Below, piece by piece: positions 23,318-25,509 of a DNA stretch of 64,000 nt. Each line of letters opens with the position of its first letter. The stretch's first letter is position 1. Position numbers and translations under genes: made by a program. The notes beneath the pieces are model-generated. The model was not told the DNA's origin. It saw nothing but the letters and a program-made list of their open reading frames with translations, and made no database searches. The DNA is from Escherichia coli (GTDB lineage Bacteria; Pseudomonadota; Gammaproteobacteria; Enterobacterales; Enterobacteriaceae), in NCBI RefSeq assembly GCF_044324785.1, contig NZ_CP172127.1; one strand, written 5' to 3'.

Positions 23318-24469
23318 ATGTCACTTGTCACCGATCTACCCGCCATTTTCGATCAGTTCTCTGAAGCTCGCCAGAAAGGCTTTCTCACCGTCATGGATCT
23401 CAAGGAGCGCGGCATTCCGTTGGTTGGCACCTACTGCACCTTTATGCCGCAAGAGATCCCGATGGCAGCCGGTGCAGTTGTGGTTTCGCTCTGTTCCACC
23501 TCTGATGAAACCATTGAAGAAGCCGAGAAAGATCTGCCGCGCAACCTCTGCCCGCTGATTAAAAGCAGCTACGGCTTCGGCAAAACCGATAAATGCCCCT
23601 ACTTCTACTTTTCTGATCTGGTGGTCGGTGAAACCACCTGCGACGGCAAAAAGAAAATGTATGAATACATGGCGGAGTTTAAGCCCGTTCATGTGATGCA
23701 GTTGCCAAACAGCGTTGAGGACGATGCCTCACGCGCGTTATGGAAAGCCGAGATGCTGCGCTTGCAAAAAACGGTAGAAGAACGTTTTGGGCACGAGATT
23801 AGCGAAGATGCTCTGCGCGATGCCATTGCGCTGAAAAACCGCGAACGTCGCGCACTGGCCAATTTTTATCATCTTGGGCAGTTAAATCCTCCAGCGCTTA
23901 GCGGCAGCGACATTCTGAAAGTGGTCTACGGCGCAACCTTCCGGTTCGATAAAGAGGCGTTGGTTGACGAACTGGATGCAATGACCGCCCGCGTTCGTCA
24001 GCAGTGGGAAGAAGGCCAGCGACTGGACCCGCGTCCACGCATTTTAATCACCGGCTGCCCAATTGGCGGCGCAGCAGAGAAAGTGGTGCGCGCGATTGAA
24101 GAGAATGGCGGCTGGGTTGTCGGTTATGAAAACTGCACCGGGGCGAAAGCGACCGAGCAATGCGTGGCAGAAACGGGCGATGTCTACGACGCGCTGGCGG
24201 ATAAATATCTGGCGATTGGCTGCTCCTGTGTTTCGCCGAACGATCAGCGCCTGCAAATGCTCAGCCAGATGGTGGAAGAATATCAGGTCGATGGCGTAGT
24301 TGATGTGATTTTGCAGGCGTGCCATACCTACGCGGTGGAATCGCTGGCGATTAAACGTCATGTGCGTCATCAGCACAACATTCCTTATATCGCTATTGAA
24401 ACAGACTACTCCACCTCAGATGTCGGGCAGCTCAGCACCCGTGTCGCGGCCTTTATTGAGATGCTGTAA
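23318..24469 (+). CDS. yjiM: 2-hydroxyacyl-CoA dehydratase D-component-like protein (HgdB/BcrD family)
   Basis: 383 aa from ATG 23318 (MSLVTDLPAIFDQF...); cysteine-containing dehydratase-type fold; conserved partner of yjiL. Confidence 0.8.
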   Translation: MSLVTDLPAIFDQFSEARQKGFLTVMDLKERGIPLVGTYCTFMPQEIPMAAGAVVVSLCSTSDETIEEAEKDLPRNLCPLIKSSYGFGKTDKCPYFYFSDLVVGETTCDGKKKMYEYMAEFKPVHVMQLPNSVEDDASRALWKAEMLRLQKTVEERFGHEISEDALRDAIALKNRERRALANFYHLGQLNPPALSGSDILKVVYGATFRFDKEALVDELDAMTARVRQQWEEGQRLDPRPRILITGCPIGGAAEKVVRAIEENGGWVVGYENCTGAKATEQCVAETGDVYDALADKYLAIGCSCVSPNDQRLQMLSQMVEEYQVDGVVDVILQACHTYAVESLAIKRHVRHQHNIPYIAIETDYSTSDVGQLSTRVAAFIEML

Positions 24470-24478
24470 GGAGTGGCA

Positions 24479-25246
24479 GTGGCATATTCGATTGGCATTG
24501 ATTCCGGCTCAACCGCCACCAAAGGGATCTTACTGGCAGACGGCGTGATTACGCGCCGTTTCCTCGTTCCAACACCCTTTCGCCCGGTAACAGCAATTAC
24601 TGAAGCCTGGGAAACTCTGCGCGAAGGGTTAGAAATAACGCCGTTTCTGACGCTCACCGGCTACGGACGGCAACTGGTGGATTTTGCCGATAAACAGGTG
24701 ACGGAAATCTCCTGTCACGGGCTGGGCGCACGGTTTCTTGCGCCAGCAACGCGCGGGGTAATCGACATCGGTGGTCAGGACAGCAAAGTGATTCAGCTTG
24801 ATGACGACGGTAACCTGTGCGATTTCCTGATGAATGACAAATGCGCGGCGGGCACCGGGCGTTTCCTGGAGGTGATCTCGCGCACGCTTGGCACCAGCGT
24901 CGAGCAACTCGACAGTATTACTGAAAATGTCACACCGCACGCCATCACGAGTATGTGCACAGTGTTTGCCGAATCAGAAGTGATCAGCCTGCGCTCAGCG
25001 GGCGTCGCGCCAGAAACGATTCTCGCCGGAGTGATTAACGCGATGGCGCGGCGGAGTGCCAATTTCATTGCTCGTCTCTCCTGTGAAGCGCCGATTCTGT
25101 TTACTGGTGGCGTTAGTCATTGCCAGACATTTGCCCGGATGTTGGAAACTCACCTGGGTATGCCGGTAAATACCCATCCTGATGCGCAATTTGCCGGCGC
25201 AATTGGCGCGGCGGTAATTGGTCAACGAGTGAGGACACGCCGATGA
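24479..25246 (+). CDS. yjiL: BadF/BadG/BcrA/BcrD-type ATPase (putative activator of 2-hydroxyacyl-CoA dehydratase)
   Basis: Begins (GTG start, Shine-Dalgarno AGGAG 5 nt upstream) MAYSIGIDSGSTATKGILLAD; ASKHA ATPase motifs IGIDSGST and DIGGQDSK; two CxxxxxxC-type cysteines; start could instead be GTG 24473. Confidence 0.8.
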   Translation: MAYSIGIDSGSTATKGILLADGVITRRFLVPTPFRPVTAITEAWETLREGLEITPFLTLTGYGRQLVDFADKQVTEISCHGLGARFLAPATRGVIDIGGQDSKVIQLDDDGNLCDFLMNDKCAAGTGRFLEVISRTLGTSVEQLDSITENVTPHAITSMCTVFAESEVISLRSAGVAPETILAGVINAMARRSANFIARLSCEAPILFTGGVSHCQTFARMLETHLGMPVNTHPDAQFAGAIGAAVIGQRVRTRR

Positions 25247-25509
25247 AAGAGTTTTTATTTTTGTTTCACTCCACGGTCGGCGTCATACAAACCCGCAAGG
25301 CGTTGCAGGCAGCGGGCATGACTTTTCGCGTCAGCGATATTCCCCGTGATTTACGCGGCGGCTGCGGGTTATGCATTTGGCTGACCTGTCTGCCCGGCGA
25401 GGAAATACAATGGGTGATCCCTGGGCAGACCGAAGCGATATATTGCCAGCAGGGCAGCGACTGGCTGTGCGTGGTACATTACGATGCAGAAGCGTCAAGC
25501 AGGCAATAG
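25243..25509 (+). CDS. Small 88-aa protein, possibly DUF3343-like, translationally coupled to yjiL
   Basis: ATG overlaps the yjiL stop (ATGA); sequence MKEFLFLFHSTVGVIQTRKALQAAGMTF...; family assignment is from memory only. Confidence 0.5.
   Translation: MKEFLFLFHSTVGVIQTRKALQAAGMTFRVSDIPRDLRGGCGLCIWLTCLPGEEIQWVIPGQTEAIYCQQGSDWLCVVHYDAEASSRQ

What the first reader, a model, noticed from the sequence alone, without database searches (positions are those of the whole stretch)
23318..25509. Dehydratase-like / activator-ATPase / small coupled protein trio of unknown substrate
yjiM (HgdB-like dehydratase component) and yjiL (BadF/BcrA-type ATPase) resemble the radical 2-hydroxyacyl-CoA dehydratase and its ATP-dependent activator from strict anaerobes. 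An 88-aa gene is start-stop coupled to yjiL. The substrate and physiological role in an enterobacterium are not established as far as I know.
Basis: partly seen in the sequence, partly recalled or inferred. Interest (0 to 1): 0.3.

Follow-up and report, generated by a model that had tools for sequence, protein, structure and literature searches.

The report
E. coli double-cubane reductase operon yjiML-ytiA
This is the known but functionally unsolved E. coli operon yjiM-yjiL-ytiA, which encodes an ATP-driven iron-sulfur reductase and a small cysteine carrier protein whose relatives sit among selenium-handling genes in other bacteria, so it probably acts in selenium or sulfur trafficking rather than as a dehydratase.

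Summary
The three co-directional genes are real: yjiM (23318-24469), yjiL (24479-25246) and an 88-aa gene (25243-25509) whose ATG overlaps the yjiL stop (ATGA). All three are already annotated. The small gene is ytiA in K-12 and a DUF3343 / "putative Se/S carrier" in RefSeq. The trio occurs in 5370 of 5426 complete E. coli genomes.

YjiM is not an HgdB-type dehydratase subunit. It passes the NCBIfam double-cubane reductase model (530 bits, cutoff 350), fails the HadB and HadC models, keeps the seven-Cys set and has no paralogous partner subunit. YjiL keeps both [4Fe-4S] cysteines of the archerase ATPases. The literature already names YjiM a class II double-cubane cluster protein (DCCP) and shows that FNR activates yjiML anaerobically.

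The added result here is comparative. The trio travels as a unit across Enterobacterales and Aeromonas. In 80 YjiM-type loci, DUF3343 recurs in 17, in several gene orders, usually beside selenocysteine lyase SclA and selenium protein YedF.

Best reading: an ATP-driven low-potential reductase acting in Se/S mobilisation through the YtiA cysteine. The substrate is untested. This is a known system with modest novelty.

The parts
23318..24469 (+). yjiM: catalytic double-cubane cluster protein (DCCP, short 'class II' type), 383 aa
   Evidence: ORF and ATG start. PF06050 at 4e-122. NF040772 at 530 bits against a cutoff of 350. PDB 6ENO at 1e-74. Cys 40, 59, 78, 108, 273, 302 and 335 fall in columns that are invariant or nearly invariant across 39 DCCPs of 31-49% identity.
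23301..23317 (+). Shine-Dalgarno-like GGGGAAGGAAAA stretch upstream of the yjiM ATG
   Evidence: Read directly from the sequence. No sigma-70-like promoter and no FNR-box-like site (2 mismatches or fewer) was found in the 115-bp yjiN-yjiM spacer.
24470..24478 (+). 9-nt yjiM-yjiL spacer carrying GGAG, the yjiL ribosome-binding site
   Evidence: Sequence TAA-GGAGTGGCA-GTG. The same 9-nt spacing is seen in RefSeq E. coli, Klebsiella and Atlantibacter loci.
24479..25246 (+). yjiL: ATP-dependent reductase ('archerase', DCCP-R / activase type), 255 aa from GTG 24479 (the mechanical ORF starts at GTG 24473)
   Evidence: PF01869 at 5.5e-76. TIGR00241 at 360 bits against a cutoff of 125. PDB 4EHT, 1HUX and 7YYL_E at 1e-52 to 1e-47. 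C122 and C160 align with HgdC C127 and C166.
25243..25246 (+). ATGA start-stop overlap of ytiA with yjiL (translational coupling)
   Evidence: The overlap is conserved as ATGA or GTGA in six other genera.
25243..25509 (+). ytiA (b4715 homologue): DUF3343 / putative Se/S carrier protein, 88 aa, with invariant Cys41 in the motif DIPRxLRGGCGLC
   Evidence: PF11823 at 6.5e-13. Annotated ytiA in K-12 and DUF3343 or 'putative Se/S carrier' in RefSeq. C41 is invariant in 20 enterobacterial homologues and in all 18 DUF3343 ORFs found at DCCP loci. The AF2 model (pLDDT 87.8) is a ferredoxin-like fold with C41 at the end of an exposed loop spanning residues 33-42.

Best explanation
The region is the anaerobically expressed operon yjiM-yjiL-ytiA, a three-part version of the double-cubane cluster protein (DCCP) system.

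YjiL is a homodimeric ASKHA ATPase that holds a [4Fe-4S] cluster between its subunits. It uses ATP hydrolysis to push a low-potential electron into the [8Fe-9S] double-cubane cluster of YjiM, and YjiM then reduces a substrate. That much follows from family membership plus the published C. hydrogenoformans structures and enzymology.

The third, translationally coupled protein YtiA is a small ferredoxin-fold carrier with one invariant cysteine. In other bacteria the same family sits inside selenium-utilisation operons.

I infer that the system works in selenium (or sulfur) trafficking. YjiML would reductively release or convert a chalcogen species that is bound to, or handed on by, Cys41 of YtiA. 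Candidates are a perselenide, persulfide or selenotrisulfide, Se(0), or a small organoselenium compound. This would feed selenide toward SelD under anaerobic conditions, when E. coli makes its formate dehydrogenase selenoproteins.

Shown: gene structure, family membership, Fe-S ligands, conservation of the trio, genomic linkage to SclA, YedF and the sel genes, and FNR activation (from the literature). Inferred: the substrate, the direction of transfer and the role of Cys41.
For: Identity:
- YjiM scores 530 bits on NF040772 against a cutoff of 350.
- Its best solved relative is DCCP 6ENO at 1e-74.
- The seven conserved Cys are present.
- YjiL matches TIGR00241, and both archerase cluster cysteines are present.
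- YtiA matches PF11823.

Operon:
- The genes are separated by a 9-nt gap and a 4-nt overlap.
- FNR directly activates yjiML anaerobically (PMC3688515).

The trio behaves as a unit:
- Spacing is identical in Klebsiella and Atlantibacter although the flanking genes are unrelated.
- The order DCCP-activase-DUF3343 holds in all five complete gammaproteobacterial loci and in Halanaerobium.

Link to selenium:
- Of 80 YjiM-type DCCP loci from species-representative genomes, 17 carry a DUF3343 ORF within 6 kb. The 18 hits have E-values of 2.6e-22 or better, and the next best is 0.05.
- DUF3343 accompanies 8 of the 10 loci with selenocysteine lyase SclA (NF040779, 693 bits, cutoff 525) and 7 of the 8 with YedF (TIGR03527).
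- These genes are tightly packed on one strand in at least five different orders, for example DCCP-activase-SclA-DUF3343-YedF, LysR-activase-SclA-DUF3343-DCCP-YedF and long-DCCP-DUF3343-activase.
- DUF3343 also closes selD-selA-selB-LysR-Aminotran_5-YedE-TusA operons.

Literature:
- 955 of 970 NF040772 proteins lie in SelD-encoding assemblies (Haft preprint).
- DUF3343 has been proposed as a Se/S chaperone, and STRING links it to an 'activase' in Slackia (PMC5322559).
Against: - No experiment ties yjiML or ytiA to selenium or sulfur. I found none in the searchable literature.
- 63 of the 80 YjiM-type loci have no DUF3343 within 6 kb, and 34 have no activase nearby. The carrier is therefore not obligatory, at least not in cis.
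- DUF3343 also occurs in SelD-lacking organisms (PMC5322559), so sulfur remains as likely a chalcogen as selenium in principle.
- Reducing Se-S or S-S species does not obviously need an ATP-boosted electron.
- Dobbek's group argues that YjiM, which lacks the N-terminal channel-closing helices, could take a CoA ester or another large substrate (PMC7317905). The roughly 36-residue N-terminal deficit relative to DCCP-Ch is confirmed.
- I ran no control set of non-DCCP HGD-D loci, so the enrichment is judged only against a rough genomic expectation.
Confidence: 0.45

Rival explanations
1. YjiML is a class II DCCP that reduces, or radical-dehydrates, a larger organic substrate such as a CoA ester. 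YtiA is an accessory unrelated to chalcogen transfer, for example a specificity, stability or regulatory subunit.
For: YjiM lacks the N-terminal extension that narrows the substrate channels of DCCP-Ch. The alignment begins at DCCP residue 62 against YjiM residue 26, and PMC7317905 gives the same argument. The nearest characterised relatives, HAD and BCR, all act on CoA esters. Most YjiM-type loci lack DUF3343.
Against: No CoA-transferase, CoA-ligase or acyl-CoA pathway gene travels with the trio. Flanking genes differ completely between Escherichia, Klebsiella and Atlantibacter. The recurrent neighbours in other phyla are SclA, YedF, DUF3343 and MtaA-like, corrinoid and RACo genes, not acyl-CoA enzymes.
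Confidence: 0.25
2. YtiA is a maturation factor rather than a substrate carrier. Its Cys41 persulfide (or perselenide) would donate the bridging mu2 atom that fuses two [4Fe-4S] cubanes into the [8Fe-9S] cluster of YjiM.
For: YtiA has an invariant single Cys typical of persulfide relays. It co-locates with a cysteine-desulfurase-family enzyme (SclA) and the TusA/DsrE-type YedF. Haft lists a Se-bridged cluster as a formal possibility to explain the DCCP-SelD correlation.
Against: Most DCCP loci have no DUF3343 nearby. DUF3343 also sits in sel operons without any DCCP, so it is not DCCP-specific. From my own knowledge rather than anything tested here, DCCP-Ch was obtained with its cluster by heterologous expression.
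Confidence: 0.15
3. One reading: a radical 2-hydroxyacyl-CoA dehydratase (HgdB-like component) with its one-time ATP-dependent activator.
For: Superfamily membership holds: PF06050 and PF01869. Older annotations read 'putative dehydratase subunit' and 'activator of (R)-hydroxyglutaryl-CoA dehydratase'.
Against: There is only one HGD-D gene in the locus and in the whole window, whereas HADs are alpha/beta heterodimers. HadC scores 93 bits against a cutoff of 700, and HadB scores 22 against 750. YjiM has the seven-Cys double-cubane set instead of the 3-Cys [4Fe-4S] motif. No CoA-transferase gene is adjacent.
Confidence: 0.04
4. YtiA is a mini redox protein (thiol/disulfide, or a small Fe-S centre on C41/C44/C49) that re-reduces YjiL.
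For: The enterobacterial proteins carry C41-x2-C44-x4-C49, and the fold is ferredoxin-like.
Confidence: 0.05

Closest known systems
DCCP / DCCP-R of Carboxydothermus hydrogenoformans (CHY_0487/CHY_0488; PDB 6ENO, 7YYL)
   Same: Same NCBIfam equivalog, NF040772. YjiM aligns to 6ENO at 1e-74, with every DCCP cysteine in the aligned region matched. YjiL aligns to the DCCP-R chain 7YYL_E at 1e-47. The two genes are adjacent in both systems. YjiM is named explicitly as a DCCP in PMC7317905.
   Different: YjiM is about 36 residues shorter at the N-terminus and lacks the channel-closing helices, which makes it 'class II'. The E. coli operon has a third, translationally coupled DUF3343 gene. The Cys spacings are X18, X18, X29, X164, X28, X32 and do not literally fit the published motif. 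No activity has been measured for YjiM.
2-hydroxyacyl-CoA dehydratases with activators (HgdAB/HgdC, HadBC/HadI; PDB 3O3M, 1HUX, 4EHT)
   Same: Same superfamily for both components. The YjiL cluster cysteines equal HgdC C127 and C166.
   Different: These are alpha/beta heterodimers with one [4Fe-4S] per subunit, use a CoA-ester substrate and need only catalytic activation. YjiM is a single subunit type with the seven-Cys set, and it scores far below the HadB and HadC cutoffs.
Class I benzoyl-CoA reductases (BzdNOPQ/MbdNOPQ; PDB 8S02, 9G87)
   Same: YjiM matches BzdN and MbdN at 5e-19 and 6e-18, and YjiL matches MbdQ at 5e-51. A BCR was recently reported to hold an [8Fe-9S] cluster (PMC11971306; title and abstract only).
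   Different: BCRs are four-subunit enzymes with stoichiometric ATP use on an aromatic CoA ester. YjiM scores 79 bits against the BzdN cutoff of 454.
Firmicute selenium-trafficking clusters containing DCCP (e.g. L089 LysR-activase-SclA-DUF3343-DCCP-YedF; L082 DCCP-activase-SclA-DUF3343-YedF; the Slackia Shel_25420-25470 region in PMC5322559)
   Same: The same three families occur (short YjiM-type DCCP of 49-66% identity, activase, DUF3343), tightly linked on one strand.
   Different: Those clusters also encode SclA, YedF and often a LysR regulator or MtaA/corrinoid/RACo genes. In E. coli only the trio is clustered, and any such partners would have to be encoded elsewhere.

Membership tests
Double-cubane cluster protein (DCCP; NCBIfam NF040772) | Whole-protein score above the curated equivalog cutoff | tested here: met
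   530.4 bits against a cutoff of 350, covering model positions 1-372 of 372.
Double-cubane cluster protein (DCCP; NCBIfam NF040772) | Seven conserved cysteines (six cluster ligands plus one near the cluster) | tested here: met
   C40, C78, C108, C273, C302 and C335 are invariant and C59 is conserved in at least 90% of 39 DCCPs. All align to Cys in 6ENO. The published regex with its literal spacings did not match, so the test rests on alignment columns.
Double-cubane cluster protein (DCCP; NCBIfam NF040772) | Adjacent gene for an ATP-dependent reductase (DCCP-R / archerase) | tested here: met
   yjiL starts 9 nt downstream and matches TIGR00241 at 360 bits.
Double-cubane cluster protein (DCCP; NCBIfam NF040772) | Actually binds a [4Fe4S]-mu2S-[4Fe4S] cluster and performs ATP-dependent reduction | not testable with these tools
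   Needs anaerobic purification, spectroscopy or a structure, and activity assays.
2-hydroxyacyl-CoA dehydratase (HgdAB/HadBC) | Two paralogous HGD-D subunits (alpha and beta) encoded together | tested here: not met
   A phmmer search of all window ORFs finds only one HGD-D homologue. The same single gene is seen in K-12, Klebsiella and Atlantibacter.
2-hydroxyacyl-CoA dehydratase (HgdAB/HadBC) | Score above the curated HadB or HadC cutoffs | tested here: not met
   HadC scores 93.1 bits against 700. HadB scores 22 bits against 750.
2-hydroxyacyl-CoA dehydratase (HgdAB/HadBC) | Associated CoA-transferase or 2-hydroxyacid pathway genes | tested here: not met
   The neighbours are yjiN (DUF445), mdtM, a pentapeptide-repeat gene and yjiK. 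None is a CoA-transferase.
Archerase / acyl-CoA dehydratase activase (TIGR00241, PF01869) | ASKHA ATPase domain above cutoff | tested here: met
   TIGR00241 at 359.8 bits against 125.4. PF01869 at 256 bits against 31.5.
Archerase / acyl-CoA dehydratase activase (TIGR00241, PF01869) | Two cysteines per monomer that bridge the inter-subunit [4Fe-4S] cluster (HgdC C127 and C166; residue numbers from my knowledge of 1HUX) | tested here: met
   YjiL C122 and C160 align to 1HUX C127 and C166, counted from the alignment with positions.
DUF3343 / Se_S_carrier (PF11823) | Score above the Pfam gathering threshold, and a size of about 80-100 aa | tested here: met
   48.4 bits against 25. The protein is 88 aa.
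DUF3343 / Se_S_carrier (PF11823) | The single highly conserved Cys (Cys-Gly) noted for the family (PMC5322559) | tested here: met
   C41-G42 is invariant in alignment A1 and in all DUF3343 ORFs at DCCP loci.
DUF3343 / Se_S_carrier (PF11823) | Carries Se or S on that cysteine | not testable with these tools
   The role is only a bioinformatic proposal in the literature. It needs mass spectrometry of the purified protein.

The most novel reading that the evidence does not exclude
YjiML-YtiA is a missing step of selenium assimilation or recycling in E. coli and many gut anaerobes. A nitrogenase-like, ATP-driven [8Fe-9S] reductase would liberate selenide from a refractory or carrier-bound selenium species, or cleave a C-Se or S-Se bond, and pass it through Cys41 of the DUF3343 carrier towards SelD. 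That would give the DCCP family its first physiological function.
Probability: 0.3. Interest if true: 0.7.

Novelty: already known. Interest (0 to 1): 0.35.

Why it matters
DCCPs are the third class of ATP-coupled low-potential metalloreductases, beside nitrogenase-type and RACE-type systems. They can reduce acetylene, hydrazine and azide, yet no physiological substrate is known (PMC9351452).

E. coli carries a conserved, FNR-activated copy that is translationally coupled to a putative Se/S carrier. The same three families are interleaved with selenocysteine lyase and YedF in Firmicutes. That turns the open question of what DCCPs do into a short list of knock-out and 75Se-labelling experiments in the most tractable organism available.

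If the selenium link holds, it would also fill a gap in how selenide reaches SelD anaerobically. If it fails, the trio remains an ordinary orphan operon.

Tried and rejected
- **Published seven-Cys regex.** CX19CX18-19CX29CX166-170CX32-34CX32C did not match YjiM. The spacings in YjiM are X18, X18, X29, X164, X28 and X32. I replaced the regex with a column-conservation test on 39 DCCPs. That test also showed the sixth Cys is C302, not C304.
- **Word-indexed homologue searches.** For YtiA and YjiM these returned only Enterobacteriaceae. Distant DCCPs came from the representative library instead.
- **Possible three-protein fusion.** The 722-aa representative P0242 has the summed length of the three proteins, but it turned out to be DCCP plus a PucR-type HTH domain.
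- **Regulatory signals.** Promoter and terminator scans found nothing above the shuffled expectation near the operon. No FNR-box-like site with 2 or fewer mismatches lies in the yjiN-yjiM spacer, so I could not locate the site behind the published FNR ChIP peak.
- **Literature on E. coli ytiA.** Searches found nothing. The hits for 'ytiA' concern the unrelated B. subtilis gene.
- **J Bacteriol version of the Haft paper.** It is not held, so I used the preprint.
- **yjiN (DUF445) as a fourth member.** Rejected. In Klebsiella it is separated from the trio by other genes, and in Atlantibacter it is absent from the neighbourhood.
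Full report
**1. Observation**

The window carries the E. coli-type gene order mdtM-yjiN-yjiM-yjiL, followed by a small ORF. Three co-directional ORFs occupy 23318-25509.
- yjiM starts at ATG 23318, behind a GGAAGGA motif, and ends at TAA 24467-24469.
- After a 9-nt spacer containing GGAG, yjiL begins at GTG 24479. This is the RefSeq-equivalent start and gives 255 aa. The mechanical ORF list starts it two codons earlier, at GTG 24473.
- The 88-aa ORF starts at ATG 25243, which overlaps the yjiL TGA as ATGA.

The 2.5-kb stretch is present at 80% coverage or more in 5370 of 5426 complete E. coli genomes. There the genes are annotated as yjiM 'double-cubane-cluster-containing anaerobic reductase', yjiL 'putative 2-hydroxyacyl-CoA dehydratase activator', and 'DUF3343 domain-containing' or 'putative Se/S carrier' protein. 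In K-12 MG1655 the small gene already has a name, ytiA (b4715, 85 aa).

**2. Is the small ORF a gene?**

Yes, on four grounds.
- It matches Pfam PF11823 (Se_S_carrier, formerly DUF3343) at 6.5e-13.
- Homologues of 53-95% identity exist in Escherichia, Citrobacter, Klebsiella, Raoultella, Kosakonia, Phytobacter and Atlantibacter.
- In an alignment of 20 of them, residues 1-47 are strongly conserved, with C41 invariant in DIPRxLRGGCGLC, while the last 25 or so residues drift.
- Against four other genera, the non-synonymous proportion is 0.15-0.26 and the synonymous proportion is 0.59-0.78, which indicates purifying selection. The ATGA or GTGA start-stop overlap is kept in Citrobacter, Superficieibacter, Klebsiella, Atlantibacter, Hafnia and Aeromonas.

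**3. What the two large proteins are**

*YjiM.*
- It belongs to the HGD-D superfamily (PF06050, 4e-122). Curated models separate the subfamilies clearly: 530 bits on NF040772 'double_cubane' (cutoff 350), against 93 on HadC (cutoff 700), 79 on BzdN (cutoff 454) and 22 on HadB (cutoff 750).
- The closest solved structure is the C. hydrogenoformans DCCP 6ENO/7YYL at 1e-74. BCR and HAD subunits follow at 1e-19 to 1e-13.
- In an alignment of 39 DCCP representatives of 31-49% identity, C40, C78, C108, C273, C302 and C335 are invariant and C59 is nearly so. This is the seven-Cys set of the family.
- The literal published spacing pattern does not fit YjiM, so I rely on the aligned columns.
- YjiM is the only HGD-D gene in the 64-kb window. 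The alpha/beta pairing that defines 2-hydroxyacyl-CoA dehydratases is therefore absent.

*YjiL.*
- It matches the activase model TIGR00241 (360 bits, cutoff 125).
- It aligns at 1e-52 to 1e-47 to HadI, HgdC, MbdQ and DCCP-R.
- Counting through the 1HUX alignment, YjiL C122 and C160 fall on HgdC C127 and C166, the ligands of the inter-subunit [4Fe-4S] cluster.

**4. What the literature already says**

- Jeoung, Martins and Dobbek (PMC7317905) list YjiM by name among the seven-Cys proteins and pair it with YjiL. They suggest it represents 'class II' DCCPs, which lack the N-terminal channel-closing helices and might accept a CoA ester or other large substrate. The N-terminal deficit is visible here: YjiM residue 26 aligns to DCCP residue 62.
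- Myers et al. place yjiML among operons directly activated by FNR with higher anaerobic expression (PMC3688515). A 2025 study lists yjiM within the FNR regulon (PMC12724342).
- Haft's preprint created NF040772, cites E. coli YjiM, and reports that 955 of 970 strong family members are in SelD-encoding assemblies.
- Lin et al. proposed DUF3343 as a Se/S chaperone with one conserved Cys. Their STRING table for Slackia links it to a 'CoA-substrate-specific enzyme activase' and '2-hydroxyglutaryl-CoA dehydratase subunit' (PMC5322559).
- An mlp-cluster study treats DCCP and DCCP-R as putative selenium-metabolism genes (PMC10418091).
- I found no paper that assigns a function to YjiM, YjiL or E. coli YtiA.

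(a) *The trio moves as a unit.* Klebsiella pneumoniae and Atlantibacter hermannii keep HGD-D, BcrAD_BadFG and Se_S_carrier with identical spacing, while the flanking genes are entirely different. In Atlantibacter the trio sits beside a pyridine-nucleotide disulfide oxidoreductase gene, rsmJ and a peptidase M3 gene.

(b) *DUF3343 recurs at YjiM-type loci.* A scan of species-representative genomes with a DCCP alignment returned 80 loci with 49-96% identity to YjiM. They come from Enterobacterales, Aeromonas, many Clostridia and Lachnospiraceae, Enterococcus, Listeria, Eggerthellaceae, Deltaproteobacteria and Halanaerobium.
- An activase lies within 6 kb in 46 loci.
- An iterated DUF3343 HMM finds 18 ORFs in 17 loci at E-values of 2.6e-22 or better. 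The next best hit is 0.05, so the count is not sensitive to the threshold.
- All five complete gammaproteobacterial loci, and also Halanaerobium, show the order DCCP-activase-DUF3343.
- Four clostridial loci place DUF3343 between a second, longer DCCP paralogue (also NF040772, about 517 bits) and the activase.

(c) *The neighbours are selenium genes.* I clustered all neighbouring ORFs and annotated the recurrent clusters.

| Neighbour family | Loci (of 80) | Of these, also with DUF3343 |
|---|---|---|
| Activase | 46 | 16 |
| Generic ABC ATPases | 21 | 3 |
| DUF3343 | 17 | n/a |
| SclA, selenocysteine lyase (NF040779, 693 bits, cutoff 525) | 10 | 8 |
| MtaA-like methyltransferases | 10 | 3 |
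| YedF, selenium-metabolism protein (TIGR03527) | 8 | 7 |
| Corrinoid (B12-binding) proteins | 7 | 1 |
| RACo | 7 | 2 |

The gene orders are tight, same-strand and varied:
- DCCP-activase-SclA-DUF3343-YedF
- DCCP-activase-SclA-DUF3343
- LysR-activase-SclA-DUF3343-DCCP-YedF-MtaA
- LysR-SclA-YedF-DUF3343-DCCP-activase
- DUF3343-SclA-YedF-activase-DCCP

(d) *DUF3343 is not DCCP-specific.* In C. hylemonae-like and Roseburia hominis contigs it closes a selD-selA-selB-LysR-Aminotran_5-YedE-TusA-DUF3343 operon that has no DCCP. The carrier therefore belongs to selenium trafficking in general, and DCCP/DCCP-R is repeatedly recruited into that context.

**6. Mechanism**

*Established by homology and published enzymology.* Reduced YjiL binds MgATP and docks on YjiM. 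ATP hydrolysis drives an electron from the YjiL [4Fe-4S] cluster to the YjiM double-cubane cluster, and YjiM reduces a substrate.

*Inferred from linkage.* The substrate or product is a chalcogen species handled by Cys41 of YtiA. I favour reductive mobilisation of selenium (or sulfur) towards SelD under anaerobiosis. My confidence is about 0.45 in the S/Se-trafficking role and above 0.9 in the DCCP / DCCP-R / DUF3343 identity.

*Weaknesses.*
- There is no experimental link.
- Most YjiM-type loci lack DUF3343 in cis.
- DUF3343 also occurs in organisms without SelD.
- The chemistry proposed does not obviously demand an ATP-boosted electron.
- I could not run a control set of non-DCCP HGD-D loci. 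The enrichment argument rests on a rough expectation: 18 DUF3343 genes in about 0.9 Mb of flanking DNA, against an assumed one to a few per genome. That assumption is mine and was not measured.

*Rivals.* A CoA-ester or large-organic-substrate class II DCCP with an unrelated accessory (0.25). YtiA as donor of the bridging sulfide or selenide during cluster maturation (0.15). YtiA as a redox partner of YjiL (0.05). The original dehydratase reading (0.04).

**7. Verdict**

The finding is real but describes an already annotated and already classified system.

The added value here is the documented, multi-lineage linkage of YjiM-type DCCP/DCCP-R with DUF3343, SclA and YedF. It points to selenium or sulfur trafficking and makes the question directly testable in E. 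coli.

Interest is 0.35 and novelty is 'already known'. The most novel reading not excluded is a DCCP-driven step of selenium assimilation, at a probability of about 0.3.

Noticed in passing
window 25510-28127 (gene 25818-27908; tandem repeat 27614-27796): A low-GC (30-40%) insertion lies between ytiA and the yjiK homologue. It encodes a 696-aa pentapeptide-repeat protein whose C-terminus contains a 24-bp tandem repeat of 7.6 copies (KQANDSTD-like). In K-12 ytiA and yjiK are only 64 bp apart. The insert is found in 637 of 5426 complete E. coli genomes, with the best match in strain N3 at 99.2%.
   Followed up: partly
window 19226-20182 (- strand): An intact 318-aa Rpn-family recombination-promoting nuclease ORF lies at the position where K-12 has the rpnD pseudogene.
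   Followed up: no
window 23203-23317: The literature reports direct FNR activation of yjiML with the 'TSS not in peak region'. However, the 115-bp yjiN-yjiM spacer has no TTGAT-N4-ATCAA-like site with 2 or fewer mismatches and no sigma-70-like promoter. The promoter and FNR site may lie inside yjiN.
   Followed up: partly
L056 5328-6623, L070 7326-8585, L085 3681-4976, L030 3012-4373: Several Clostridia carry two DCCP genes side by side: a short YjiM-type one and a long one of 419-431 aa, both NF040772. DUF3343 is wedged between the long paralogue and a single activase, which suggests one reductase serves two catalytic partners.
   Followed up: partly
L087 1-8237 and L088 1-8237: In gut Lachnospiraceae, DUF3343 is the last gene of an apparent selD-selA-selB-LysR-Aminotran_5-YedE-TusA-DUF3343 operon. 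This is the most direct genomic tie of the family to selenocysteine synthesis.
   Followed up: partly
protein P0242 (representative library): A 722-aa protein has a full YjiM-like DCCP domain (51% identity, residues 1-383) fused to a C-terminal PucR-type helix-turn-helix. It is either a DCCP-derived sensor/regulator or a gene-calling fusion.
   Followed up: no
L013-L086 versus window 23318-24469: YjiM is 57-66% identical to proteins of Clostridia, Enterococcus and Listeria. The accompanying YtiA is only about 25-30% identical to the Firmicute DUF3343 proteins. The catalytic subunit is thus far more constrained than the carrier, and the patchy distribution suggests horizontal transfer between gut Firmicutes and Enterobacterales.
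   Followed up: no
L036, L041, L046, L067, L068, L070, L078, L086: YjiM-type DCCP genes are embedded in MtaA-like methyltransferase / corrinoid protein / RACo clusters. These are the 'mlp' clusters proposed to handle methyl-selenide or methyl-sulfur compounds in PMC10418091.
   Followed up: partly
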